Assembly (NCBI GenBank): GCA_900320505.1
Contig: ONSL01000001.1
Location: forward strand, 1-57,726
From: an uncultured Eubacteriales bacterium
Lineage (GTDB): Bacteria > Bacillota_I > Bacilli_A > RF39 > UBA660
DNA: 57,726 nt
Direction: 5' to 3'
The notes under the pieces are model-generated. The model saw nothing but the letters and a program-made list of their open reading frames with translations. It was not told the DNA's origin and ran no database searches. A program made the translations under genes and the position numbers. Numbering within the stretch: the stretch's first letter is position 1; every line of letters starts with the position of its first letter. This document shows positions 24,301-56,920 of the stretch, piece after piece.

Positions 24301-25942
24301 GTGAATGTCTTGCATAATTATTATCAAGTGTACGTGAAAGTTCTAGTGTATCAATTACAGTATTTTTAAATGTGCCTAAATTATATTTTTTATAACACAT
24401 TTCAAGAAATGATACATCAAATTTTGCATTGTGAGCAACCATTGGAAGATCTCCAAACCACTTAATAAAGTCTTTAATTGCATCCTCTTCGCATCTTTTA
24501 CCTTCAAGCATATCATCAGTTATATTTGTAACAGCAGTTATTCTCTCTGGTAATTTTCTACCTGGATTTATAAGTTCATCATATTTTTCAATTACCATTC
24601 CTTCTTTAATCTTTACTGCACCAATTTCAATAATACTATCTTCTCCGCCTGCATTAAAGCCTGTTGTTTCAAAATCGAATACAACATATGTATCATCAAG
24701 TAGTTTATCTTTATTTGGTCTTACAACAATATCTACTGAATCGTCAATTAAAGTAAGTTCTGTTCCATATAATGCTTTAAATGGTTCTTCCCCTTCTTTT
24801 AATCCTTTATTGTATTTTGTTACATAGTTAAAAACATGAGGAAATGCTTGACATCCATTATGATCTGTTATTGCAATTGCTTTATGTCCCCATTTAATCG
24901 CTCTTTTAACTAAATCAGTTTCATCTGCAACTCCATCCATCTGACTCATTTTAGTATGTGCATGAAGTTCTACACGTTTTTCAGGATATGTATCTTCTAT
25001 TGTTACATCTTTATGATCGCTCTTCATTATATCTCTAGCATTTAAAACAAGTTCTTTTGAATATTGATCATTTTTAGTATATCCTCTAACTTTTATCCAA
25101 ACTCCTTCTTTTAGTTCTTTAGAAAGACATTTATATTCATCTTTATCACGAGTAAATACCTTGCAATATATACTATCCGTATAGTCAGTTATCTTAAGTG
25201 TTATTATTTTAAAATCACTTTTAGATGATTCAAAATATTCAGTTCCAAATATTTTAGCCTCTACTGTGACGTTATTATCTTCACCAATTACAGTATGTAA
25301 ACTTATTGGATTGTCTTTTATAGTAACACCTAATATACAATCAGGACTTGTCTCTCTTTTTCTAAATCTTCTTAGTTGAGTGTTATTATTGCTATTATTA
25401 TTTTCAGTTTGAGCTATTTTTTCTTTAGGTAAGTCCTTAAAAGATACCTCTGTTACATTTTTAAGTTCTACTTTATCTTTATTTTCTTCAAGTAGTATTT
25501 CATCTTTATATCCCAAACTATTATATATCTTATTTATTCTTTCTATATTACTCTTTAATTTTTCTTCTTCAAATTTGTTGCTATAAAGTATAACTAATTT
25601 ATTATCTTTAATATTAATAGAATTTATAAATAAATTCTTACTTATCTTCTCTTTTAAAATATCAAGTACTACACTAAAATATCTTTTATATAATTCTATA
25701 TCTATATTTTCTACATCAAAAAAGAAATATGCCTTTTTTATTCTTCTATCAAGTATATATATCTTGTCACATAACTCTTTATATACATCTGGTTCAATCA
25801 TATTATCTATTTTAATATAAAGTTCAAGAACACCATCTGTTTTAAAAAGTTTCATTTTTATAAGTTTAGCATTATTAAAAAAGTCATACTTTTCTTTATC
25901 AAAATTTATTTTATCAAGTAATAATTTTATGTTTTTTTCCAT
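21323..25942 (-). CDS. polC: DNA polymerase III PolC-type (alpha subunit with intrinsic exonuclease)
   Basis: 1539 aa. PHP domain HAHTKMSQMDG, DnaQ-type exonuclease FDFETTG...HNAKFD, Zn module CPKCK...CPNCK, and polymerase core. Confidence 0.97.
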   Translation of the reverse strand: MEKNIKLLLDKINFDKEKYDFFNNAKLIKMKLFKTDGVLELYIKIDNMIEPDVYKELCDKIYILDRRIKKAYFFFDVENIDIELYKRYFSVVLDILKEKISKNLFINSINIKDNKLVILYSNKFEEEKLKSNIERINKIYNSLGYKDEILLEENKDKVELKNVTEVSFKDLPKEKIAQTENNNSNNNTQLRRFRKRETSPDCILGVTIKDNPISLHTVIGEDNNVTVEAKIFGTEYFESSKSDFKIITLKITDYTDSIYCKVFTRDKDEYKCLSKELKEGVWIKVRGYTKNDQYSKELVLNARDIMKSDHKDVTIEDTYPEKRVELHAHTKMSQMDGVADETDLVKRAIKWGHKAIAITDHNGCQAFPHVFNYVTKYNKGLKEGEEPFKALYGTELTLIDDSVDIVVRPNKDKLLDDTYVVFDFETTGFNAGGEDSIIEIGAVKIKEGMVIEKYDELINPGRKLPERITAVTNITDDMLEGKRCEEDAIKDFIKWFGDLPMVAHNAKFDVSFLEMCYKKYNLGTFKNTVIDTLELSRTLDNNYARHSLSAIVKRYNVPWDENAHHRGDYDAEGTALVFWKMLEKLNNRNIETMDQLANMVSTDEIYKYGRSYHVNLIAKNKTGLKNLFKIISLANTIYIYKTPRIPRSVLEENREGLLVGSGCYESEVFVQARSKSEDELSNIIRYYDYVEVQPIECYIHLLQTGDFSNNLELSEHLKKIIRTTKEAGKLIVATGDVHHIDREDKIYREIIVNQKVPGGGRHPLARGGIKEIPSNHFRTTDEMMDDFKFLEDEKLAHEIVIDNPNKIADMCDIIEVIPDTGGIPFSPRVKGDDGEYLDCPRVVTDLVMTKAKDWYGDPLPHFIEDRIATELYGDILKNTITENLKAQGIEDEDKIFEELDKYINDGKDKIEDLIREKLRKENPDLDKDALEGLLKKKLGGVIGGGFDPIYLIAQRLVKHSNDEGFLVGSRGSVGSSFVATMMGITEVNPLPAHYRCPKCKRSFFNDDNGESLGTNFSSGFDLPDKDCPNCKIKMIKDGQDMPFATFLGFNADKVPDIDLNFSDLNQASAHAYTKVLFGEDNVYRAGTIGTVADKTAFGFVKGFEEEKGIEGMRTAEIERLAMGCTGVKRTTGQHPGGIVVIPDYKSVYDFTPFQFPADDPTSAWRTTHFDYHAIDQCVLKLDILGHSDPTQLRLIQLQSGTDIMKVPLDDKATMSIFTSTEALGVTNEEIMCDTGTLGIPEFGTPFTIQLVKDTKPKTFGELIKISGLSHGTDVWLGNAQDLIKNNIVPFKEVIGCRDDIMVYLMYHGLEPIKAFKIMEFVRKGRPSKAKKPDDPETWKGYVKDMQDAKIPDWFIGSCAKIKYMFPKAHAAAYVISAFRIAWYKVHMPVYFYTSWYTSKATDVDLDAMIGGYSKVKERIIDIQNKGYEATNKENGQLESLKVALEATARGIVFLNVDLYKSDATVWTPKNDKEIYPPFSAIDGLGDTVAKKIVEERDKAKFLSKEDLAKRGKVSATLIDKMTEMGIIDDLPDSNQLSLF

Positions 25943-35545: not shown

Positions 35546-36217
35546 TTAGTAATAATATTTTTCATCATTATCCGTTACTTTACAATATCTATAATTAAGA
35601 GGAGCAACTATCAAAATATGATTATCACCAATCTCTTCTGGTGCAGATATCGTTATATCAAGTGAAAAATAATTGATACCATAGTTAGTATTTGTAATTG
35701 GATCTATTGTATTATAAGCATCATGTACATTTGTATTAATAGATGAAAATCTTGTAAACTTTACACCAGTACAATCACTACTTGTACATTCTGTATCTGG
35801 AAGATCATACTTAACCTTTTGTGTATATCCTAAATTATTTATATCATCATATACTATATAATTTTCTGACTTAACATTACTGTTCGCATGAATTTCTAAT
35901 TGTTTTGAATAAATATTTCCTCTTCCGTTGCTTGCTCTTAAAGGTATATTGTAATTTAACGTAAATCTATATATTGTAGTTGAACCACTTTTATAACTAT
36001 TTGCAACAACATTCTTAATTTCTCCCTTTATGATATCGGTTTGAATTTGCTTTGTTATTATGTTTTTATAATCAACTATTTCATTTTTCTTTTCTAGATC
36101 AATTTCCTCATTTGAATAATTAAGTATAAAATTTGTAATAGCAACTGCTAATGCTGATGCAATCATAAAGCCGATTAAAAGTTCTGCAATTGTCATTCCT
36201 TTATTATCTAACTTCAT
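35546..36217 (-). CDS. prepilin-type (type IV pilin/pseudopilin-like) protein
   Basis: Class III signal KG|MTIAELLIGFMIASALAV, with Glu at +5 after the Gly. Confidence 0.75.
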   Translation of the reverse strand: MKLDNKGMTIAELLIGFMIASALAVAITNFILNYSNEEIDLEKKNEIVDYKNIITKQIQTDIIKGEIKNVVANSYKSGSTTIYRFTLNYNIPLRASNGRGNIYSKQLEIHANSNVKSENYIVYDDINNLGYTQKVKYDLPDTECTSSDCTGVKFTRFSSINTNVHDAYNTIDPITNTNYGINYFSLDITISAPEEIGDNHILIVAPLNYRYCKVTDNDEKYYY

Positions 36218-36945
36218 TCTCTATTCACCTCTATTGATGCATAAGTATAGTACTTATCTCCAAATTCAGTTAAAGCCTCATGCTCCTGTTCAACAATTAA
36301 TAAAAGTTTTCTATTTTTATTTGCAGCAGAAATATGTGAAGGAAGATATGCAACATATGATTTAAAGCTTCTTGTAAACATATTACTATTCTTAACAAAA
36401 TCTTTAAATGAACGAGAAGCACCTGTTGGTACAGAAGTTGTTTCATAAGAAGTTATATATATATTTGTTATATGACTTGCATTTACAAACTGATTGCAAT
36501 AATACATATTATTTTTAGTTTTCTTACTTGTATCAAGCATATTGCATAATGAATTTCTGTTAGTATAATGATAATCTGTTGTAAAGATATTGTTGTTTTC
36601 AATTGGAACATACATTATATTACCATCATTATCTGCTTTGCAATCAGAAGTTGCACATTTATAAGATGTAGTTTCATACATTTTACAAGTATTACCACAA
36701 TCAGACTGAAAACCACCTGACATATTAGTAATTCTATTTGGCGTAGATGTATCGGTTTCAATCATCTCTTTAATATAATATGCCAAGTATTTTGTATCAA
36801 GGTCTTCATAGTTTTCAGTTGCTTTATTTTTTGCAGAAATTGGATATATTATATTGTAAAGCATAGTGATTGTAAATGCTATTGCAAGCGCACTAACTAT
36901 GGTTTCTACCATTGCAAATCCTTTCTCATTAAATTTTTTTTTCAT
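36214..36945 (-). CDS. prepilin-type (type IV pilin/pseudopilin-like) protein, Cys-rich
   Basis: Class III signal KG|FAMVETIVSALAIAF. The globular part has at least 8 Cys (SDCGNTCK...YKCATSDCK...). Confidence 0.75.
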   Translation of the reverse strand: MKKKFNEKGFAMVETIVSALAIAFTITMLYNIIYPISAKNKATENYEDLDTKYLAYYIKEMIETDTSTPNRITNMSGGFQSDCGNTCKMYETTSYKCATSDCKADNDGNIMYVPIENNNIFTTDYHYTNRNSLCNMLDTSKKTKNNMYYCNQFVNASHITNIYITSYETTSVPTGASRSFKDFVKNSNMFTRSFKSYVAYLPSHISAANKNRKLLLIVEQEHEALTEFGDKYYTYASIEVNRE

Positions 36946-37056
36946 AACTTTCCTCTTTCTTCTTGTAAAGATTCCTACTTTATTATATAATTAATTATAG
37001 TCTAGGGTTGGGGAATTGTAAAGAATAAAAATGAATAGAAAGGGAGATGCTAATTT

Positions 37057-39861
37057 ATGGTAACGTTTAACTTCGCTCAAACGCCAGTTACACAAATAGC
37101 AGATGCAATAATAATTGAAGCATCTCGTAAAAATGCCAGTGATATTCATTTTGATCCAAGAGATAATGGCTTAATGGTTAGACTAAGAATTGATGGAGAT
37201 TTAATGGATTATGCTTACATTCCTAAAGCCTATGAAAGAAACTTAACAACTAGACTTAAACTTATGTCTGGTATGAATATTACGGAAAGTCGTCTACCAC
37301 AAGATGGTGCAATTAAAGGAAACTTTGGTGGAAAAGAACTTGATATGCGTGCATCTTGCCTTCCAACAAATGAAGGAGAAAAAATAGTTATTCGTATTCT
37401 TGACTATACAAGAAGTTTAGGTGGACTTGATGACTTAGGTTTTTCAGATGATAACTTAGTAAAAATAAAAAGAATGGTCGCTGCGCCAAATGGTATTATA
37501 CTTGTTACAGGAGCTACTGGTTCAGGAAAATCTACAACAACATACTCTATGCTTCAAGTATTAAATAAAGAAAACACAAATATTATCACAGTTGAAGACC
37601 CAATTGAAATGAATATTGAAGGATTAAACCAAGTACAAGTTAATTCTGAAATTGGTCTTACATTTGCAACAGTATTAAGATCTATTTTACGTCAGGATCC
37701 AAACGTTATACTTATTGGAGAAATTCGTGATTCAGAAACCGCACAAATTGCAGTACGTGCATCTATTACTGGTCACCTTGTTTTATCAACAATCCATACA
37801 AACAACTCACTTGCAACAATTGAGAGACTTCTAGATATGAATGTTGAAAAATATTTGCTTTCAACTGCAATTACAGGAATTGTTTCACAACGTCTCGCAA
37901 AAATGCTTTGCAAAAATTGTAGAAGGAAAAGAAAAACTACTCCATATGAGAAAAAAGTATTTAAACTTGCACTTCGTAAAGATGTAGATGAGATATGGGA
38001 TGTTAATCCTGATGGATGTAATGAATGTAATCATGGTTATAAAGGACGTATCGCTTTGCAAGAAGTTCTAGAAATATCTGATGAAATATCATCTGCAATA
38101 AACGAGGTTAATACAGATAGAGATGAACTTCGTAAACTTGTTTATGGAACAGGAAAGGTTACTACCCTACTTCAAGATGGACTTAATAAAGTATTAGCTG
38201 GTGAAACAAGTTTTGAAGAAATATATAGAGTTATTGAAATTGATAACGATATTGATGATAGTTGTATGGCATTCATGTCTGAAGATAAAGAAGAACAAGC
38301 CGTTGAAAACTTAAAAACAGTTGAAAAAGCTGAAGTTGTAGAAGTTGAGCAAAATGATTCAAATATAGAAAATAAAGTAAAGACTGATGTAGAATCAAAT
38401 ACAACATCAGCACTTAAAGAAAAGGTAATGGATGATAAAGTATCTTCTAATGCAAATAAAGTAATAAATAACAGTGCATCTTCAATACTAACATCAAATG
38501 CTAAACAAAAAGTTGCAAAAACTGAAACAATAGTTGTACCAAAAGCAGCTGATAAAGCTCCAGTTCAAACTAAAGAAGCTGAACAAAATGTTATAAATAC
38601 ATCTAAACCTTCTAATGAAAATCAAAAGCAAGTTATGACTATTAAAGAAGATCAAAAAGAAAATAGTACAAACATCAAAACAGAAACGCCTGTTATAAAA
38701 TTAAAGGAAAAATCTGAAGTCCCAGTTATAAATATTACTGCAGATAAAAGTGCAAATAATGAAAAAACACCAGTAGTTGTGGTTAATCAAGTAAATAAAG
38801 ATAATAATATAAAAGAAGATGCTAAACAAAAAGTTGAAACTCGAGCTATAAATGAAAGTAATAATGCAAAAGTAAATTCTAAAGAAGAAGTATCACCTGT
38901 CGTAGTTCCAGTAGTAAATGTAAAAGGAAATAGCAATGATAAAATAAAAGACAATAAAAAAGAAGAAAAGCAAGTAGTTTCAACCCCAAGTATAAATAAA
39001 AATAATAATGTTAAAGCAGAATCTAAAAAAGAAGCATCACCTATTGTTGTTACAGTAGTAAATGCAAAAGAAAATAATAGTGCTAAAGCAAAAGATGTTC
39101 CAACTATAAATAAAAATAATAATATTAAAGTTGAGTCTAAGAACGAAAATAATAAAGTAAAAGAACAAGAAACTAAAAATAAAAATTCTAAAAAAGAAGT
39201 AATAAAGAAAGATAGCAATCAAAAAGCATCTGTTCAAACTATAAACATCAAAGAAAACACTAATAGCAAAGAAGAAAGAAAACATTTTGAAGACTTCTTC
39301 CCTAAAAAAGATTTATTCTCAAATTCAAGCATAAATAATAAAGAGAAGAAAACGAAAGATGATAAAAAGAAAGATAAAGTTGTAATTAAACTTGATGAGT
39401 TGATTGGAAGTACAGATATATTTAAGAAAGATGATAAAAGCAAAAAAGAAGTAAAAGAATTTAAAGAAAAAGAATTAAAGAATGATAAAGAATTAAGAAA
39501 AGAAAGTGCAGCATACTTCCCTAAAAAACTTCCAAGCAATAAAGATTCAATTAATAAACTAAATCTTGAAATTAAAAAGATAAAAGATAGAAATATAAAT
39601 GATACAATTACTAAAGAAGATACAGAAATTCTTTATAACTTACTTGATGAAAAAATTAAAAAATTAAATGATATAAAAAATAATGATGATTCTGCTGATA
39701 TTATTTATAATCTATTAGATGAAAAAATTAAACTTCTTGATAAAAAGAAAGACAAATCAAAAACAAAAAATAATAAAAAAACTACTAAATCAAAAAATAA
39801 AATTAATAGTAGAAAATACAGCAGTAACTTTTTTCCAAGAAGTATAGATGAAATAAAATAA
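37057..39861 (+). CDS. GspE/PilB/ComGA-family secretion ATPase fused to a ~540-aa Lys/Asn/Glu/Val-rich repetitive C-terminal tail
   Basis: Walker A GATGSGKST, Asp box, Walker B ILIGEIRD, His box TGHLVLSTIHTN, and tetra-Cys CKNC...CNEC. The tail from about aa 400 is low complexity. Confidence 0.85.
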   Translation: MVTFNFAQTPVTQIADAIIIEASRKNASDIHFDPRDNGLMVRLRIDGDLMDYAYIPKAYERNLTTRLKLMSGMNITESRLPQDGAIKGNFGGKELDMRASCLPTNEGEKIVIRILDYTRSLGGLDDLGFSDDNLVKIKRMVAAPNGIILVTGATGSGKSTTTYSMLQVLNKENTNIITVEDPIEMNIEGLNQVQVNSEIGLTFATVLRSILRQDPNVILIGEIRDSETAQIAVRASITGHLVLSTIHTNNSLATIERLLDMNVEKYLLSTAITGIVSQRLAKMLCKNCRRKRKTTPYEKKVFKLALRKDVDEIWDVNPDGCNECNHGYKGRIALQEVLEISDEISSAINEVNTDRDELRKLVYGTGKVTTLLQDGLNKVLAGETSFEEIYRVIEIDNDIDDSCMAFMSEDKEEQAVENLKTVEKAEVVEVEQNDSNIENKVKTDVESNTTSALKEKVMDDKVSSNANKVINNSASSILTSNAKQKVAKTETIVVPKAADKAPVQTKEAEQNVINTSKPSNENQKQVMTIKEDQKENSTNIKTETPVIKLKEKSEVPVINITADKSANNEKTPVVVVNQVNKDNNIKEDAKQKVETRAINESNNAKVNSKEEVSPVVVPVVNVKGNSNDKIKDNKKEEKQVVSTPSINKNNNVKAESKKEASPIVVTVVNAKENNSAKAKDVPTINKNNNIKVESKNENNKVKEQETKNKNSKKEVIKKDSNQKASVQTINIKENTNSKEERKHFEDFFPKKDLFSNSSINNKEKKTKDDKKKDKVVIKLDELIGSTDIFKKDDKSKKEVKEFKEKELKNDKELRKESAAYFPKKLPSNKDSINKLNLEIKKIKDRNINDTITKEDTEILYNLLDEKIKKLNDIKNNDDSADIIYNLLDEKIKLLDKKKDKSKTKNNKKTTKSKNKINSRKYSSNFFPRSIDEIK
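38848..39150 (+). repeat. degenerate in-frame tandem repeats inside the ATPase tail
   Basis: Units start at 38848, 38992 and 39106 (144- and 114-nt periods) and encode IN(E/K)(S/N)NN-x-K-x-(N/E)SK-x-E-x-SP-x-VV-x-VVN-x-K. A second duplicated segment, (L/I)YNLLDEKIK, has its Tyr codons at 39634 and 39706. Confidence 0.7.
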
Positions 39862-39873
39862 GGACTATTTAAA

Positions 39874-40539
39874 TTAGTCCTTATTTTTTAATATCATATT
39901 TAAAATTTCATCATTTATTTCTTTTACATCTCTCATTTTATTCATATTAGTACATTCAATTTTATTCCATCCATAAAGTGTTGTAAGCTCAAGATATGCC
40001 TTCTCACTCTTTTCAAGGTAATCTATATCTTTTTCATCATCATCTAAATCTTTCCTATTTTTTAAAAGTTCTTTCGTTACACTAATAGGAACATGTAAAT
40101 ATATTGTAATATCTGGTTTAGGAATTTTTAATAGCCAGTATTCTAATCTATCAATCCACTGATACATATAAAATCTATCTTCTTTGTTTTCTATTTTGCT
40201 TCCCTGATATGCTAAATTAGATGTTGTATACCTATCAAGTATTATATAATATCCTTCATCATAATATTTAATTATTTCTTTCATATTATATTTTCTATCT
40301 GCAGCATAATAAAGAGATGCAACATAAGGATCAACATTACTTGCCCTTTCCTTAAATAAACTTTTTTTATATTTTCCTAAATAGCAATCCTCAACTATTT
40401 TTCCGGTTGGAGAATCATACATTGGAAATGAAAATCTTTTGCATTTTATTCCCATATCATTTAATCTTTCTTCTAAAAGTTTAGATTGTGTTTCCTTACC
40501 ACTACAATCAGTGCCTTCTATTACAATATACTTTCCCAT
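39874..40539 (-). CDS. tmk: thymidylate (dTMP) kinase
   Basis: KYIVIEGTDCSGKETQ P-loop and the DRY motif (LDRYTTSNLAYQ). The probable start is the ATG at 40539. The longer track ORF would overlap ruvB. Confidence 0.85.
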   Translation of the reverse strand: MGKYIVIEGTDCSGKETQSKLLEERLNDMGIKCKRFSFPMYDSPTGKIVEDCYLGKYKKSLFKERASNVDPYVASLYYAADRKYNMKEIIKYYDEGYYIILDRYTTSNLAYQGSKIENKEDRFYMYQWIDRLEYWLLKIPKPDITIYLHVPISVTKELLKNRKDLDDDEKDIDYLEKSEKAYLELTTLYGWNKIECTNMNKMRDVKEINDEILNMILKNKD

Positions 40540-55633: not shown

Positions 55634-56851
55634 TTAATCATTAAGCATTTCTGCAACCTTTTTCATATTTTCTTCATCAGTATTTTCGAGTCTTTCATAA
55701 TCTTCTTCATCAATCATACTGAGGCTTCTGGAACGAATATTAAGCTTATCTTTAAAGTATTTTACTGTTCCGATAAGTGTTCCATATTTGTTATGTCTCA
55801 ATCCAATAGTGGTACTACTCCAAACAGTTACCCTTTCTCCTAATAAGTGAGAAGATAAATAGTTTAAACCTGTCATCTCGCTTAGTCCACCTAAAATTAT
55901 TATATAACTTATTTTTCTGTTTGTTAAGTTTTTTATTTCTTTTTTTGAAGAATTTAATATTTCCGTTAAACGTTTTTCTACTATTTCAGTTATTTTGTAT
56001 TGATTTATTTTTACGTCTTCTCCATTTTCATCTTTAAGAGTTATACTATCATACTTATCAGCATACCTAATACTTGCAAGTGCATATGTTTCTTTTAAAG
56101 CTCTTGCATCTTTTAGTCCAATCTTTAACATATATGATATATCGCTATCAACATGACGACTACCAATATTTACTGTACCAGAATTAATCATTATTCCTTT
56201 ATTTATTATTCCAATTGTAGTTGATTCTTCTCCAATATCTATTACTGCACCAAGTTCTTTAGACATTACTTTATTTCCACATGCTGAATAATCTGCTGAT
56301 ACGCTAAATGTAACATCAATAACCTCAAGTCCAGCTTCTGTTACAACTTTTAAATACTTTATTAAATAGTCTCTTGGTACGCTTGCAAGAATAACCTTGG
56401 AAAATAGCTTTTTAGATCTCTTTCCTTTAGGATTATCTACTATCTTATTATTATCAAGTCTATATCCAACAGGTGATGCTGTTATAAGTTCATATCCTTC
56501 TTTAATATTTCCCTTTAATGATGCTTTTACAAGATTTGTTATATCTGTGCCACTTATCATATTTGGATCTACAACATTAACAGTTGTATTTGCAACAGAA
56601 TATGACACATCTTTTGGTTTTATACTCAAAACAACTTTTTTTATATCAATTCCTAATTTATCTTTTACATTATTTAATGCTATGGTAATTGATCTTACTA
56701 GTTTATTTTGATCAATTATTTTGCCTTTTGATACACCTCTTGTTTTAACTTCAGACTTTGCAAGAAGTCTTAATTCACCATTAACTTCTTTAAATACTCC
56801 AAGTTTTACAGTATTTTCTCCAATGTCTAATCCAGTATATACCTTGTTCAT
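55634..56851 (-). CDS. ftsA: cell division protein FtsA
   Basis: Actin-fold start YTGLDIGENTVKLGVF, and DIGEESTTIGI. GGAGG RBS before the ATG at 56851. Immediately upstream of ftsZ. Confidence 0.93.
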   Translation of the reverse strand: MNKVYTGLDIGENTVKLGVFKEVNGELRLLAKSEVKTRGVSKGKIIDQNKLVRSITIALNNVKDKLGIDIKKVVLSIKPKDVSYSVANTTVNVVDPNMISGTDITNLVKASLKGNIKEGYELITASPVGYRLDNNKIVDNPKGKRSKKLFSKVILASVPRDYLIKYLKVVTEAGLEVIDVTFSVSADYSACGNKVMSKELGAVIDIGEESTTIGIINKGIMINSGTVNIGSRHVDSDISYMLKIGLKDARALKETYALASIRYADKYDSITLKDENGEDVKINQYKITEIVEKRLTEILNSSKKEIKNLTNRKISYIIILGGLSEMTGLNYLSSHLLGERVTVWSSTTIGLRHNKYGTLIGTVKYFKDKLNIRSRSLSMIDEEDYERLENTDEENMKKVAEMLND

Positions 56852-56920
56852 AGCATCCTCCAATTATATTAATAAGTATACTATAAATTTATTTAAAAAT
56901 AAATATAAATGTTTCTCTTT

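What the first reader, a model, noticed from the sequence alone, without database searches (positions are those of the whole stretch)
38254..39861. ComGA/PilB-type ATPase with a ~540-aa repetitive Lys/Asn/Glu/Val-rich C-terminal tail
Residues 1 to about 395 form a complete secretion/competence ATPase (Walker A and B, Asp and His boxes, tetra-Cys). Homologs normally end there. This ORF continues for ~540 residues of low-complexity sequence with internal structure. There are 38-48-aa degenerate repeats carrying SP-x-VV-x-VVN-x-K cores (38848-39150). The motif F/Y-FP-K/R occurs three times (HFEDFFPKK, AAYFPKK, SNFFPRS). The segment (L/I)YNLLDEKIK is duplicated 24 residues apart. The frame stays open through ~1.6 kb of A-rich DNA, which argues for selection rather than chance. 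A cytoplasmic hexameric motor with six long charged tails is unusual. The tails could act as a tether, a nucleic-acid-binding arm or a partner-recruitment arm.
Basis: partly seen in the sequence, partly recalled or inferred. Interest (0 to 1): 0.6.

Follow-up and report, generated by a model that had tools for sequence, protein, structure and literature searches.

The report
Pilus motor ATPase with long floppy tail
A pilus-assembly motor protein of an uncultured rumen/gut bacterium really does carry a 535-residue, mostly disordered tail, and its few conserved short motifs also occur in a second pilus motor and in a coiled-coil protein of the same bacterial genus, which suggests a shared docking partner that is still unknown.

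Summary
Observation confirmed. Window 37057-39861(+) is one 934-aa gene: a complete PilB/GspE-type ATPase (residues 1-396) that lacks the usual N-terminal N1 domain, followed by a 535-aa tail with no detectable homologue.

The tail is not an artefact. It has 0 stops in frame against 48 and 116 in the other frames. Eight strain alleles are all exactly 934 aa. Independent metagenome contigs span it without gaps.

Every one of 68 complete orthologues from gut/rumen RF39-like Bacilli has such a tail (83-963 aa). The tails cannot be aligned with each other.

AlphaFold gives residues 434-826 pLDDT 24-30 with no secondary structure, and residues 796-905 as helix-prone. Within the species the tail takes 9 nonsynonymous and 1 synonymous change (core: 1 and 10), so most positions are weakly constrained.

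The exception is short motifs.

New here: a related motif ([YF]xx[YF]APKK) sits in the tails of the Tad-type ATPase of sister species. It also occurs five times in tandem in a genus-restricted coiled-coil protein of this genome.

Best reading: a flexible, multivalent tether that docks the motor. The partner and the function are untested.

The parts
36963..36991 (+). Promoter-like site (TTGTAA-17-TATAAT) in the 111-bp divergent control region shared with the pseudopilin genes. A GGGAG ribosome-binding site follows at about 37042-37046.
   Evidence: Consensus scan. Sequence read. A consensus match only, not shown to function.
37057..38244 (+). Residues 1-396: N1-less PilB/GspE-type ATPase core (N2 domain, RecA-like C-terminal domain, tetracysteine zinc module).
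   Evidence: Pfam T2SSE E 5e-118. NCBIfam GspE and PilB are the best matches, below cut-off. PDB GspE, PilB and PilF at E about 1e-95. AlphaFold pLDDT is mostly 75-95.
38245..38514 (+). Residues 397-486: proximal tail. It holds the acidic junction (IEIDNDIDDSC), a Glu/Lys-rich predicted helix (397-433) and two x-S-[IL]-[IL] elements. This is the only part of the tail that aligns within the genus.
   Evidence: BLAST of tails: only residues 399-486 match two species, at E 0.006-0.007. Side-by-side view of 11 genus sequences. Helix 397-433 at pLDDT 41-53.
38356..39441 (+). Residues 434-795: disordered core of the tail, rich in Lys, Asn, Glu and Val.
   Evidence: AlphaFold pLDDT 24-30 with no secondary structure from 434 to about 800. 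Mean hydropathy 0.37 against 0.48 in the core, and 39% charged residues.
38848..39156 (+). Residues 598-700: degenerate internal repeats of 48 and 38 aa with S-P-[VI]-V-V-x-V-V-N cores.
   Evidence: Self-comparison scores of 63, 50 and 46 against a null 95th percentile of 44.
39280..39318 (+). Short linear motif 1, residues 742-754: KHFEDFFPKKDLF. It also fits the F-[DE]-x-F-F pattern.
39499..39537 (+). Short linear motif 2, residues 815-827: KESAAYFPKKLPS. It lies in the break between two predicted helices.
39442..39771 (+). Residues 796-905: helix-prone, Lys/Glu-rich region with four predicted helices. It includes the duplicated (I/L)YNLLDEKIK segments at 857-870 and 881-894.
   Evidence: AlphaFold with alignment gives helices 801-820, 828-844, 853-872 and 877-902; pLDDT averages 38-45 over residues 800-830 and 66-83 over 830-900. 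Single-sequence AlphaFold of 795-934 gives helices with 10-residue block means of 72-94, but pTM is only 0.23, so no confident packing. Duplication score 56. A single related copy occurs in one sister species.
39742..39816 (+). Residues 896-920: strongly basic Lys-rich stretch (net charge +0.22 per residue over 880-919).
   Evidence: Windowed charge profile.
39814..39852 (+). Short linear motif 3, residues 920-932: KYSSNFFPRSIDE, near the C-terminus. It corresponds in position to the [IL]-[IL]-F-P-[QK] motif near the C-terminus of sister-species tails.
   Evidence: which lists NLIFPQG, SIIFPKN, TLIFPQS and VPMFPK in orthologues.
39855..39887. Hairpin that overlaps the stop codon (39859-39861), between this gene and the convergent thymidylate kinase gene. 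Likely a bidirectional terminator. The scan returned only this hairpin, so none lies at the ATPase/tail junction.
   Evidence: Terminator-like scan. Sequence.
35546..36945 (-). Two divergently transcribed pilin-like genes (243 and 223 aa) with class III signal-peptide-like N-termini. They are probable filament subunits served by this motor.
   Evidence: Translations. No Pfam hit. The same arrangement is seen in strain contigs.

Best explanation
This is one genuine gene for the assembly (extension) ATPase of a type IV filament, either a pilus or a competence pseudopilus. The organism is an uncultured rumen/gut bacterium of the RF39-like small-genome Bacilli.

The enzyme has lost the N-terminal N1 domain, which docks or regulates canonical GspE and PilB. 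Instead it carries a ~535-aa C-terminal arm.

Most of the arm is an intrinsically disordered spacer. Its sequence drifts almost freely, but its presence and open frame are maintained. Embedded in it are:
- a semi-conserved proximal segment;
- three aromatic-Pro-Lys motifs (x-[YF]-x-x-[FY]-[FY]-P-K-K);
- a helix-prone Lys/Glu-rich segment;
- a basic stretch.

Proposed mechanism (inferred, not shown): the hexamer displays six flexible arms, each with several weak docking motifs. This tethers or concentrates the motor at a partner site near the membrane platform, which is encoded elsewhere in the genome. The arm would stand in for the missing N1 domain and the missing PilM-type scaffold.

Related motifs occur in the tail of the unrelated Tad-type ATPase in sister species. 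They also occur five times in tandem in a genus-restricted coiled-coil protein. The reader of the motif is therefore probably shared. It could be a protein, possibly that coiled-coil protein's conserved N-terminal domain, or the anionic membrane surface.
For: The gene and tail are real:
- The frame is open against an expectation of ~52 stops, with strong codon periodicity.
- Eight alleles are all 934 aa.
- The tail occurs in at least 20 independent runs, and contigs span it with 0 gaps.
- A promoter-like site and ribosome-binding site lie upstream, and the only terminator-like site is at the stop codon.

The family is established.

N1 is absent:
- The protein starts at model position 106 of GspE and 178 of PilB.
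- Almost all orthologues (63 of 68 complete ones) start with the same M-V/I-x-[FY]-[DN]-[FY] N-terminus.

The rest of the machine is in the genome:
- A PilC-like platform and an A24 prepilin peptidase lie on another contig.
- ComEC is present.
- No PilM scores above cut-off in 11 genus genomes.
- No third T2SSE-family ATPase (PilT) is found.

The tail is a lineage trait:
- The 8 complete same-genus orthologues are 573-863 aa; two more run off contig ends (at least 562 and at least 479 aa).
- All 68 complete orthologues carry tails of 83-963 aa, median 222.

Disorder is supported.

The spacer is weakly constrained:
- Polymorphism is 10 synonymous and 1 nonsynonymous in the core, against 1 and 9 in the tail (Fisher p about 3.5e-4, my arithmetic).
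- The tail cannot be aligned beyond residue ~486.
- It has no homologue in 1.84 billion proteins.

The motifs are conserved:
- [FY][FY]P occurs 0 times in the cores and 1-7 times in 8 of 11 genus tails, against an expectation of 0.01-0.07.

The motifs are shared across proteins:
- Tad-type ATPase tails of 6 of 11 genus genomes carry [YF][YF]xx[YF]AP[KQS].
- A weight matrix built only from PilB-tail motifs detects them at P <= 0.034 in 5 genomes.
- The 509-aa protein at C52:9961-11490 has five [NDE]L[YF]xK[FY]APKK repeats.
- That protein family is found in 11 of 11 genus genomes and in 0 of 20 others, the same range as the motif.
- Its orthologues carry 0-5 copies.
Against: - No binding partner has been identified and no experiment exists.
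- Tail pN/pS is about 2 from only 10 sites. The alleles were picked as distinct proteins, which inflates nonsynonymous counts overall. This is what a neutral appendage would also show.
- Two or three genus members (G002, G009 and the truncated G001) have long tails without the motif.
- Orthologues outside the genus lack the motif entirely (7 of 80 loci have it). The motif therefore cannot explain why the whole lineage keeps tails.
- The genome has many other low-complexity segments: 64 of about 971 proteins have a hydrophilic run of at least 60 aa.
- AlphaFold shows no docking of the motifs onto the ATPase itself.
- The Tad-tail motif has Ala where the PilB-tail motif has an aromatic residue, so the two may not share a reader.
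- Motif co-occurrence among 11 related genomes is not phylogenetically independent.
- Evidence for transcription is ambiguous. The runs that hold the tail are labelled 'metatranscriptomic WGS'.
Confidence: 0.55

Rival explanations
1. Tolerated junk. The tail is a selectively neutral low-complexity appendage. It arose by stop-codon loss and replication slippage in a very AT-rich, drift-prone small genome. It persists because the C-terminus of the hexamer points away from functional surfaces. The 'motifs' are leftovers of recently duplicated repeat units.
For: - Polymorphism in the tail is 1 synonymous and 9 nonsynonymous; 20 of the 21 polymorphic sites in the gene are G/C-to-A/T type changes.
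- The tails cannot be aligned between species and have no homologues.
- Motifs often sit in near-identical tandem units, which indicates recent duplication: a 51-aa unit three times in G004 and a 25-aa unit four times in G010.
- Other proteins of this genome also carry low-complexity tails, including the Tad-type ATPase and a VirD4-like coupling protein.
Against: - About 5% of single-base changes in the tail would create a stop. Even so, all 68 complete orthologues keep tails of at least 83 aa (median 222), and these tails are diverged beyond alignment.
- No indel or stop occurs among 8 alleles.
- The same motif class recurs in different sequence contexts, in three unrelated proteins and in many species. 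Repeat-unit ancestry cannot explain that.
- The two ATPase tails in this one genome differ sharply in composition: Lys/Asn/Glu-rich against Ser/Val/Asn/Pro-rich. Mutation bias alone therefore does not set the sequence.
Confidence: 0.22
2. Direct membrane anchor. The aromatic-plus-lysine motifs and the basic stretch bind anionic phospholipid head groups, in the manner of the MARCKS effector domain. Each site is weak but the hexamer presents many. This keeps the soluble motor at the membrane next to the platform protein, with no protein reader needed.
For: - The motifs combine two or three aromatic residues with Lys-Lys and are often followed by Lys runs, for example YSKNFYPEKDVNNIKKKKSKK four times in G010.
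- Residues 880-919 of the window protein carry +0.22 net charge per residue.
- N1 and PilM, the usual membrane-proximal docking elements, are absent.
- Membrane binding would explain why the same motif suits two different motors and a coiled-coil protein.
Against: - The order of residues and the Pro are conserved (x-Y-x-x-F-Y-P-K-K). Non-specific interfacial binding would not require that (one search lists the instances).
- Several variants replace Lys-Lys with Asn-Pro, Glu-Lys or Ala-Lys: SFFPNPD, FYPEKD, YFPAKD.
- Most orthologous tails outside the genus are net negative.
Confidence: 0.15
3. Nucleic-acid-binding arm. The Lys-rich tail binds incoming or chromosomal DNA and couples the motor to DNA uptake.
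For: - The tail is 20% Lys and has a basic C-terminal stretch.
- ComEC is present in the genome, so DNA uptake is plausible.
Against: - Overall net charge is only +0.04 per residue, because Glu and Asp nearly balance Lys.
- Of 68 orthologous tails, 33 are net negative and only 9 net positive, so basicity is not a conserved property.
- No known DNA-binding domain or motif was found.
Confidence: 0.05
4. Artefact. The tail results from misassembly of low-complexity DNA, from a sequencing frameshift, or from fusion of two genes by a lost stop codon in this one assembly.
For: - The DNA is A-rich and of low complexity.
- The genome is a fragmented metagenome bin (88 contigs, 81.6% complete).
Against: - Contigs of 2.0-2.6 kb from three other runs cover the junction and the tail with 0 gaps and 4-5 substitutions.
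- Identical-length alleles come from NCBI, ENA, JGI and Logan assemblies.
- Orthologues in 78 other species have the same architecture.
- All read 'joints' have sides of only 20-26 letters, typical of low-complexity cross-matches.
Confidence: 0.02

Closest known systems
[quoted passage not shown]
   Same: The N2 domain, the RecA-like domain with Walker A and B, the Asp and His boxes and the tetracysteine zinc module are all present. Sequence matches to solved structures reach E about 1e-95 over residues 8-396.
   Different: The N1/MshEN-type N-terminal domain is absent. The solved homologues end at the position equal to residue ~396, whereas this protein continues for 535 residues. It scores below the curated equivalog cut-offs for GspE (463 against 630) and PilB (441 against 676).
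ComGA, the competence pseudopilus ATPase of Bacillus and Streptococcus
   Same: It is a monoderm, N1-less secretion ATPase. The genome holds ComEC, so a DNA-uptake role is possible.
   Different: The NCBIfam ComGA model scores 262.5 against a cut-off of 300 and covers only residues 17-282. This protein keeps the C-terminal tetracysteine module. The gene is not in a comGA-GG operon: it is divergent from two large pilin-like genes, and the platform and peptidase lie on another contig.
FtsZ C-terminal linker plus conserved C-terminal peptide (from my own knowledge, not tested here)
   Same: A folded NTPase core is followed by a disordered linker of very variable length and sequence. The linker carries a short conserved peptide that docks the polymer or oligomer to membrane-associated partners. 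The functional logic matches: what is selected is a spacer of some length plus a motif, not the spacer's sequence.
   Different: The protein family is unrelated. Here there are several internal motifs rather than one terminal peptide, the spacer is far longer, and the partner is unknown.
Thermus thermophilus PilF (PDB 6f8l, 913-residue chain)
   Same: It is another PilB-family motor enlarged to about 900 residues by an accessory region. It shows that the family tolerates large appendages.
   Different: In the 6f8l chain the part that aligns to this protein's core lies at residues 510-889, so PilF's extra ~500 residues are N-terminal; that they are folded GSPII-type domains is my recollection. 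The extension here is C-terminal and mostly disordered.
Earlier notes of this scan on sister lineages (PilB-like ATPases with disordered tails of 100-1130 aa in gut Bacilli)
   Same: The architecture and the lineage are the same. Those notes reached the same inference: N1 has been replaced by a C-terminal arm carrying short motifs.
   Different: Those notes are unchecked AI notes. None that I retrieved mentions the same motif class in the Tad-type ATPase tail or in a separate coiled-coil protein.

Membership tests
T2SSE secretion ATPase superfamily (PF00437) | Significant match to the family profile over the whole catalytic region | tested here: met
   PF00437 at E 4.9e-118, 394 bits against a cut-off of 24.9, covering residues 9-391.
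T2SSE secretion ATPase superfamily (PF00437) | Walker A, Asp box, Walker B and His box | tested here: met
   The motifs GATGSGKST, ITVEDPIE, ILIGEIRD and GHLVLSTIHT can be read in the translation. Most of their residues are invariant and the rest nearly so (>=90%), apart from A153, I177 and L243, in the 38-sequence alignment.
PilB/GspE subgroup (assembly ATPases) | C-terminal tetracysteine zinc-binding module | tested here: met
   C285, C288, C321 and C324 are invariant in 38 sequences.
PilB/GspE subgroup (assembly ATPases) | N-terminal N1 / GSPII (MshEN) domain | tested here: not met
   The alignment starts at model position 106 of 486 (GspE) and 178 of 564 (PilB), at residue 8 of the protein. 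No N-terminal domain was hit in Pfam.
PilB/GspE subgroup (assembly ATPases) | Score above the NCBIfam equivalog cut-off (TIGR02538 PilB, TIGR02533 GspE) | tested here: not met
   441 bits against 675.65 for PilB, and 463.4 bits against 630.25 for GspE. The shortfall fits the missing N1 domain.
ComGA (NF041000) | Score above the curated cut-off | tested here: not met
   262.5 bits against a cut-off of 300.
ComGA (NF041000) | comG-type operon context | tested here: not met
   The gene is monocistronic and divergent from two pilin-like genes. The platform and peptidase lie on contig C86.
Functional type IV filament system | Platform protein (T2SSF), A24 prepilin peptidase and pilin-like substrates in the same genome | tested here: met
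   - A PilC-like 604-aa protein with two T2SSF domains, followed by a 283-aa Peptidase_A24 protein, at C86:42040-44647.
- Two pilin-like genes at window 35546-36945.
Functional type IV filament system | PilM-type scaffold and PilT retraction ATPase | tested here: not met
   - PF11104 does not score above its cut-off in any of the 11 genus genomes.
- Only two T2SSE-family genes are present per genome, one PilB-like and one Tad-like.
- This genome is only 81.6% complete.
Intrinsically disordered region bearing short linear motifs | Low predicted order, low hydropathy and no domain match | tested here: met
   pLDDT is 24-30 with no secondary structure over residues 434-800. Hydropathy is 0.37 and 39% of residues are charged. 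No family or structure match was found. Residues 796-905 are helix-prone and not disordered.
Intrinsically disordered region bearing short linear motifs | Short conserved islands within fast-evolving sequence | tested here: met
   Motif enrichment is shown. The surrounding sequence cannot be aligned. Core and tail differ sharply in their polymorphism pattern.
Intrinsically disordered region bearing short linear motifs | A demonstrated binding partner for the motif | not testable with these tools
   No complex prediction or experiment was available.

The most novel reading that the evidence does not exclude
This genus has evolved a private short-motif network that organises its surface-filament motors.

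The proposed hub is a genus-restricted protein of about 500 aa. It has a strongly conserved N-terminal domain of unknown fold, a disordered middle and a C-terminal coiled coil. Either its N-terminal domain or an unidentified reader recognises aromatic-x-x-aromatic-[Ala/aromatic]-Pro-Lys-Lys peptides.

These peptides are displayed:
- in the protein's own middle region (up to 5 copies);
- on the disordered tail of the PilB-type ATPase (up to 7 copies);
- on the tail of the unrelated Tad-type ATPase (1-2 copies).

The two pilus machines would then be clustered, positioned or co-regulated by multivalent, possibly condensate-like interactions. These would replace the folded N1 and PilM/TadZ docking modules used elsewhere.
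Probability: 0.2. Interest if true: 0.78.

Novelty: new variant of a known kind. Interest (0 to 1): 0.58.

Why it matters
Type IV filament motors are among the best-studied bacterial machines. Their recruitment is explained by folded modules: the N1 domain, GspL, PilM, PilZ/FimX and TadZ.

Here a whole lineage of abundant but uncultured gut and rumen bacteria has dropped N1 and PilM. Every member instead has a long disordered C-terminal arm on the motor. If the arm is the docking device, recruitment of a hexameric secretion ATPase by multivalent short motifs would be a new design principle for this family.

The motif shared between two unrelated pilus motors and a coiled-coil protein gives a concrete hypothesis that can be tested with peptides.

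There is also a practical point for annotation. These genes are easily mistaken for fusions or misassemblies, and they are neither.

I found nothing on such tails in the literature I could search.

Tried and rejected
- **Antisense ORFs.** The ORFs inside the tail (38787-39218, 39037-39285 and 39234-39539, minus strand) encode Phe/Leu/Ser-rich strings. They are by-products of an A-rich sense strand. The reverse frames still hold 8-47 stops. I did not treat them as genes.
- **DNA tandem repeats.** Tandem Repeats Finder found only short A-rich micro-repeats and no long-period array. The 38-48-aa repeats are visible only at the protein level.
- **Homologues of the tail.** A word-based search returned only the protein's own 90% cluster. 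phmmer against 1.84 billion representatives returned nothing. Pfam, NCBIfam and the PDB returned nothing. BLAST among 80 orthologous tails aligned only residues 399-486.
- **Transcription evidence.** The runs that hold the tail are labelled 'METATRANSCRIPTOMIC WGS' and may contain DNA. True RNA-Seq runs of related samples held none of the sampled words. I make no claim about expression.
- **Read 'joints'.** All have sides of 20-26 letters and come from low-complexity cross-matches. I rejected them as evidence of deletions.
- **Intramolecular docking.** AlphaFold gives the motif positions pLDDT 30-45, so it offers no support for the motifs docking onto the ATPase.
- **Folded C-terminal domain.** The helices at 796-905 are predicted confidently, but pTM is 0.23. 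I did not run a fold search on this model.
- **The 509-aa motif-bearing protein.** Pfam gave only sub-threshold WG_beta_rep and coiled-coil matches, NCBIfam nothing meaningful, and the PDB nothing.
- **Resemblance to eukaryotic MAP-kinase motifs.** PL[TS]P and aromatic-Pro resemble P-x-S/T-P and FxFP. I judged this a coincidence: the spacing differs and no such kinase is indicated.
- **First internal-repeat scripts.** One search replaced them.

Full report
**What is at the coordinates**

Window 37057..39861(+) is a single 934-codon open frame. Residues 9-391 match Pfam T2SSE at E 5e-118. The best NCBIfam models are GspE (463 bits), PilB (441 bits) and ComGA (262 bits), and all three fall below their curated cut-offs.

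The Walker A, Asp-box, Walker B and His-box motifs can be read directly in the translation. The four cysteines (C285, C288, C321, C324) are invariant in a 38-sequence alignment of orthologues.

The match begins at model position 106 of GspE and 178 of PilB. The protein therefore lacks the N1 domain of canonical assembly ATPases.

Solved GspE, PilB and PilF structures match at E about 1e-95. All end within a few residues of the position equal to residue 393-396.

Residues 400-934 match nothing in Pfam or NCBIfam, nothing in the PDB and nothing among 1.84 billion representative proteins.

**Is the tail real?**

The tail frame has 0 stops. The other two frames of the same DNA have 48 and 116. Mononucleotide shuffles give a mean of 52 and never fewer than 30.

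G makes up 32% of first codon positions and 5% of second and third positions, a clear coding periodicity.

The 90%-identity cluster of this protein holds eight distinct alleles from NCBI, ENA, JGI and Logan assemblies. All are exactly 934 aa.

The tail DNA occurs in at least 20 independent bovine, sheep and other gut runs. Contigs from three other runs cover window 37531-40000, 37932-40000 and 37626-39639 with 4-5 substitutions and no gaps.

A promoter-like site and a GGGAG ribosome-binding site precede the ATG. The only terminator-like hairpin overlaps the stop codon, and none lies at the ATPase/tail junction.

I therefore reject artefact, frameshift and gene fusion in this assembly alone. 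Evidence for transcription is ambiguous, because the runs that hold the tail are labelled 'metatranscriptomic WGS'.

- The 48-aa and 38-aa repeat units at residues 598-700 (nt 38848-39156) score 63, 50 and 46 in a self-comparison. The shuffled 95th percentile is 44.
- The duplicated (I/L)YNLLDEKIK, 24 residues apart, scores 56.
- The three F/Y-F-P sites lie at residues 747, 820 and 925, against a shuffle expectation of 0.01.

**Structure**

AlphaFold with a 38-sequence alignment folds residues 1-396. It predicts a Glu/Lys-rich helix at 397-433 with low confidence. Residues 434 to about 800 get pLDDT 24-30 with no secondary structure. Helices follow at 801-820, 828-844, 853-872 and 877-902; over residues 830-900 the pLDDT averages 66-83, while the first helix scores only 38-45.

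A single-sequence run on residues 795-934 repeats the four helices, but pTM is only 0.23. The segment is helix-prone, not a defined globular domain.

The tail has mean hydropathy 0.37, 39% charged residues and a net charge of +0.04 per residue. A basic patch (+0.22) lies at residues 880-919.

**Relatives**

The genome is a 1.2-Mb, 88-contig bin. The closest records are uncultured gut and rumen 'Bacilli', 'Tenericutes', 'Mycoplasma sp. CAG:877' and 'Candidatus Faecimonas'. I read this as the RF39-like small-genome Bacilli.

All 10 other genomes of the genus have the orthologue with no internal stop. The 8 complete ones are 573-863 aa; two more are cut by contig ends (at least 562 and at least 479 aa). 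In other genera of the family the tails read here are about 30-110 aa, apart from one 706-aa protein that also has an N-terminal extension.

Among 80 loci from GTDB species representatives, the 68 complete genes are 481-1361 aa. Their tails run from 83 to 963 aa, with a median of 222. Almost all start with the same N1-less M-V/I-x-[FY]-[DN]-[FY] N-terminus.

Tail composition differs widely between species: Lys/Asn/Glu here, Pro/Gln/Thr/Val elsewhere, often with species-specific tandem repeats. Of the 68 tails, 33 are net negative and 9 net positive. This argues against a conserved nucleic-acid-binding role.

BLAST among the tails aligns only residues 399-486 of the window protein, and only to two species.

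**Selection**

Eight allele sequences carry 21 polymorphic sites. The ATPase core has 10 synonymous and 1 nonsynonymous change. The tail has 1 synonymous and 9 nonsynonymous, all conservative: K/R, D/N, V/I, G/R and I/T. By my arithmetic the Fisher exact p is about 3.5e-4.

One caveat applies. The alleles were sampled as distinct proteins, which inflates nonsynonymous counts overall. That bias does not affect the contrast between core and tail.

Most tail positions are therefore weakly constrained. However, about 5% of single-base changes in the tail would create a stop. No allele or orthologue is truncated near codon 400, even though the tails have diverged beyond alignment. What is maintained is a long open hydrophilic arm, not its sequence.

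**Conserved islands**

Within the genus three kinds of element persist:
- the junction IEIDNDI[DE]DSC, a charged helix and two x-S-[IL]-[IL] elements;
- the motif x-[YFH]-x-x-x-[FY]-[FY]-P-x-x, for example YSKNFYPEKD, YSKAFYPKKD, SSYFPAKD and SNSFFPNPD. It occurs 0 times in any ATPase core and 1-7 times in 8 of 11 tails, against an expectation of 0.01-0.07;
- a related [IL]-[IL]-F-P-[QK] site near the C-terminus, and PL[TS]P, which occurs in 9 of 80 tails against 1.4 expected, usually 12-23 residues from the end.

Outside the genus the aromatic-Pro motif is absent: only 7 of 80 loci have it.

**The same motif class in other proteins (new here)**

The genome's only other T2SSE-family gene is a Tad/CpaF-like ATPase at C61:12881-14392. 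It lies next to an RcpC/CpaB-like gene. It also has a low-complexity C-terminal tail of ~160 aa.

I fetched its orthologues from the ten sister genomes. Six of the eleven tails carry [YF][YF]xx[YF]AP[KQS], for example INYYDMYAPKKIEN and VNYFDLYAPKKLEN. The cores carry none.

A weight matrix built only from the 27 distinct PilB-tail motif instances detects these sites at P <= 0.034 in five genomes. Three of these tails also end with PL[TS]P-x(3-4)-N/S-F-F.

I then scanned the window's own proteome for [FY][FYA]P[KR][KRS]. This found one further protein with repeats, at C52:9961-11490(-), 509 aa. It has five tandem [NDE]L[YF]xK[FY]APKK units, then TFDNFFDI, then a C-terminal coiled coil.

That protein has no confident Pfam, NCBIfam or PDB match. 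Its family occurs in 11 of 11 genus genomes and in 0 of 20 genomes outside the genus. Only 29 clusters exist among 5.8 billion proteins. Its range therefore coincides with that of the motif.

Orthologues of this protein carry 0-5 AP[KS]-type motifs and a nearly universal F-D-x-F-F. The first motif of the window tail, HFEDFFPKK, also fits F-[DE]-x-F-F. That pattern occurs only six times in the 354,000 residues of all open frames of 150 aa or more, in all six frames.

**Context of the machine**

- A PilC-like platform (604 aa, two T2SSF domains) and an A24 prepilin peptidase lie on contig C86.
- ComEC is on C30.
- Two pilin-like genes are divergent from the ATPase gene.
- No PilM scores above its cut-off in any genus genome.
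- No PilT-like third ATPase was found.

**Interpretation**

Shown:
- The gene and its tail are real.
- The tail is a trait of the whole lineage.
- The tail is mostly disordered.
- Its spacer drifts.
- A small set of motifs is conserved and is shared by three unrelated proteins of the genus.

Inferred:
- The tail is a flexible multivalent tether displayed six times per hexamer.
- Its motifs dock to a shared reader, either a protein or the membrane.
- It compensates for the missing N1 and PilM modules.

The main rival is that the tail is tolerated low-complexity sequence. This is weakened by the universal retention of long open tails and by recurrence of the motif in unrelated contexts. It is not excluded for the bulk of the spacer.

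Earlier notes of this scan describe the same architecture in sister lineages and reach a similar inference. None that I retrieved mentions the Tad-tail or coiled-coil-protein motif. Literature searches found no description of such tails on PilB or ComGA-type ATPases.

**Verdict**

The protein is a new variant of a known kind of machine. Interest is moderate to high because of the lineage-wide swap of N1 for a C-terminal disordered arm and because of the shared motif, which gives a directly testable hypothesis.

Noticed in passing
G000:C61:12881-14392 (+); sister copies in L112-L121: The genome's second T2SSE-family ATPase is Tad/CpaF-like and follows an RcpC/CpaB-like gene. It also has a ~160-aa Ser/Val/Asn/Pro-rich C-terminal tail. 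In six sister genomes that tail carries [YF][YF]xx[YF]AP[KQS], and in three of them also PL[TS]P...NFF.
   Followed up: yes
G000:C52:9961-11490 (-) = L122: A genus-restricted 509-aa protein next to the suf operon. It has a strongly conserved N-terminal ~215-aa domain of unknown fold, five tandem L[YF]xK[FY]APKK repeats, an invariant F-D-x-F-F motif and a C-terminal coiled coil. No family or structure match was found.
   Followed up: partly
G000:C23, minus strand, 739-aa open frame (starts at base 104 of the reverse complement): By eye this resembles a VirD4/TraG-type coupling ATPase (membrane N-terminus, GATGSGKT). It has a ~150-aa disordered Glu/Lys-rich C-terminal tail that ends in D9-FFDDFFDN. 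It is a third secretion NTPase in this genome with a floppy tail tipped by an aromatic motif. I did not run a family search on it.
   Followed up: no
G000:C74, plus strand, 384-aa open frame starting at base 25002: DnaJ, identified by eye from the J-domain HPD motif, the Gly/Phe region and the zinc-finger repeats. Its Gly/Phe region contains DDIFDSFFGD, which closely resembles the invariant [TVI]FD[DE]FFG[VI] of the 509-aa coiled-coil protein. This could be coincidence or a hint at chaperone (DnaK) recognition.
   Followed up: no
G000:C86:42040-44647 (+) = L021-L023: The PilC-like platform is 604 aa. Its small N-terminal domain appears duplicated, with a Lys-rich insert (KGKSKKKKKKGG) between the copies. 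The prepilin peptidase gene follows it directly. This shows that the 'orphan' pilus module in the window is not orphan at genome level.
   Followed up: partly
window 37065-39697: Of the 21 polymorphic sites among the eight sequences compared, 20 are changes between G/C and A/T (18 of them transitions); the exception is an A/T change at 38193. This fits a strong AT-biased mutation pressure. Synonymous diversity is much lower in the tail (1 site in about 302 synonymous sites) than in the core (10 in about 268), probably because third positions in the tail are already 90% A/T.
   Followed up: partly
window 39855-39887: A 13-bp-stem hairpin overlaps the stop codon of the ATPase gene and lies 12 nt from the stop of the convergent thymidylate kinase gene. 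It is likely a shared bidirectional terminator.
   Followed up: no
window 55634-56863 (-): A 409-aa ORF gives a sub-threshold PilM_2 match (22.9 bits, profile positions 1-239). It is most likely FtsA and not a pilus scaffold protein.
   Followed up: no
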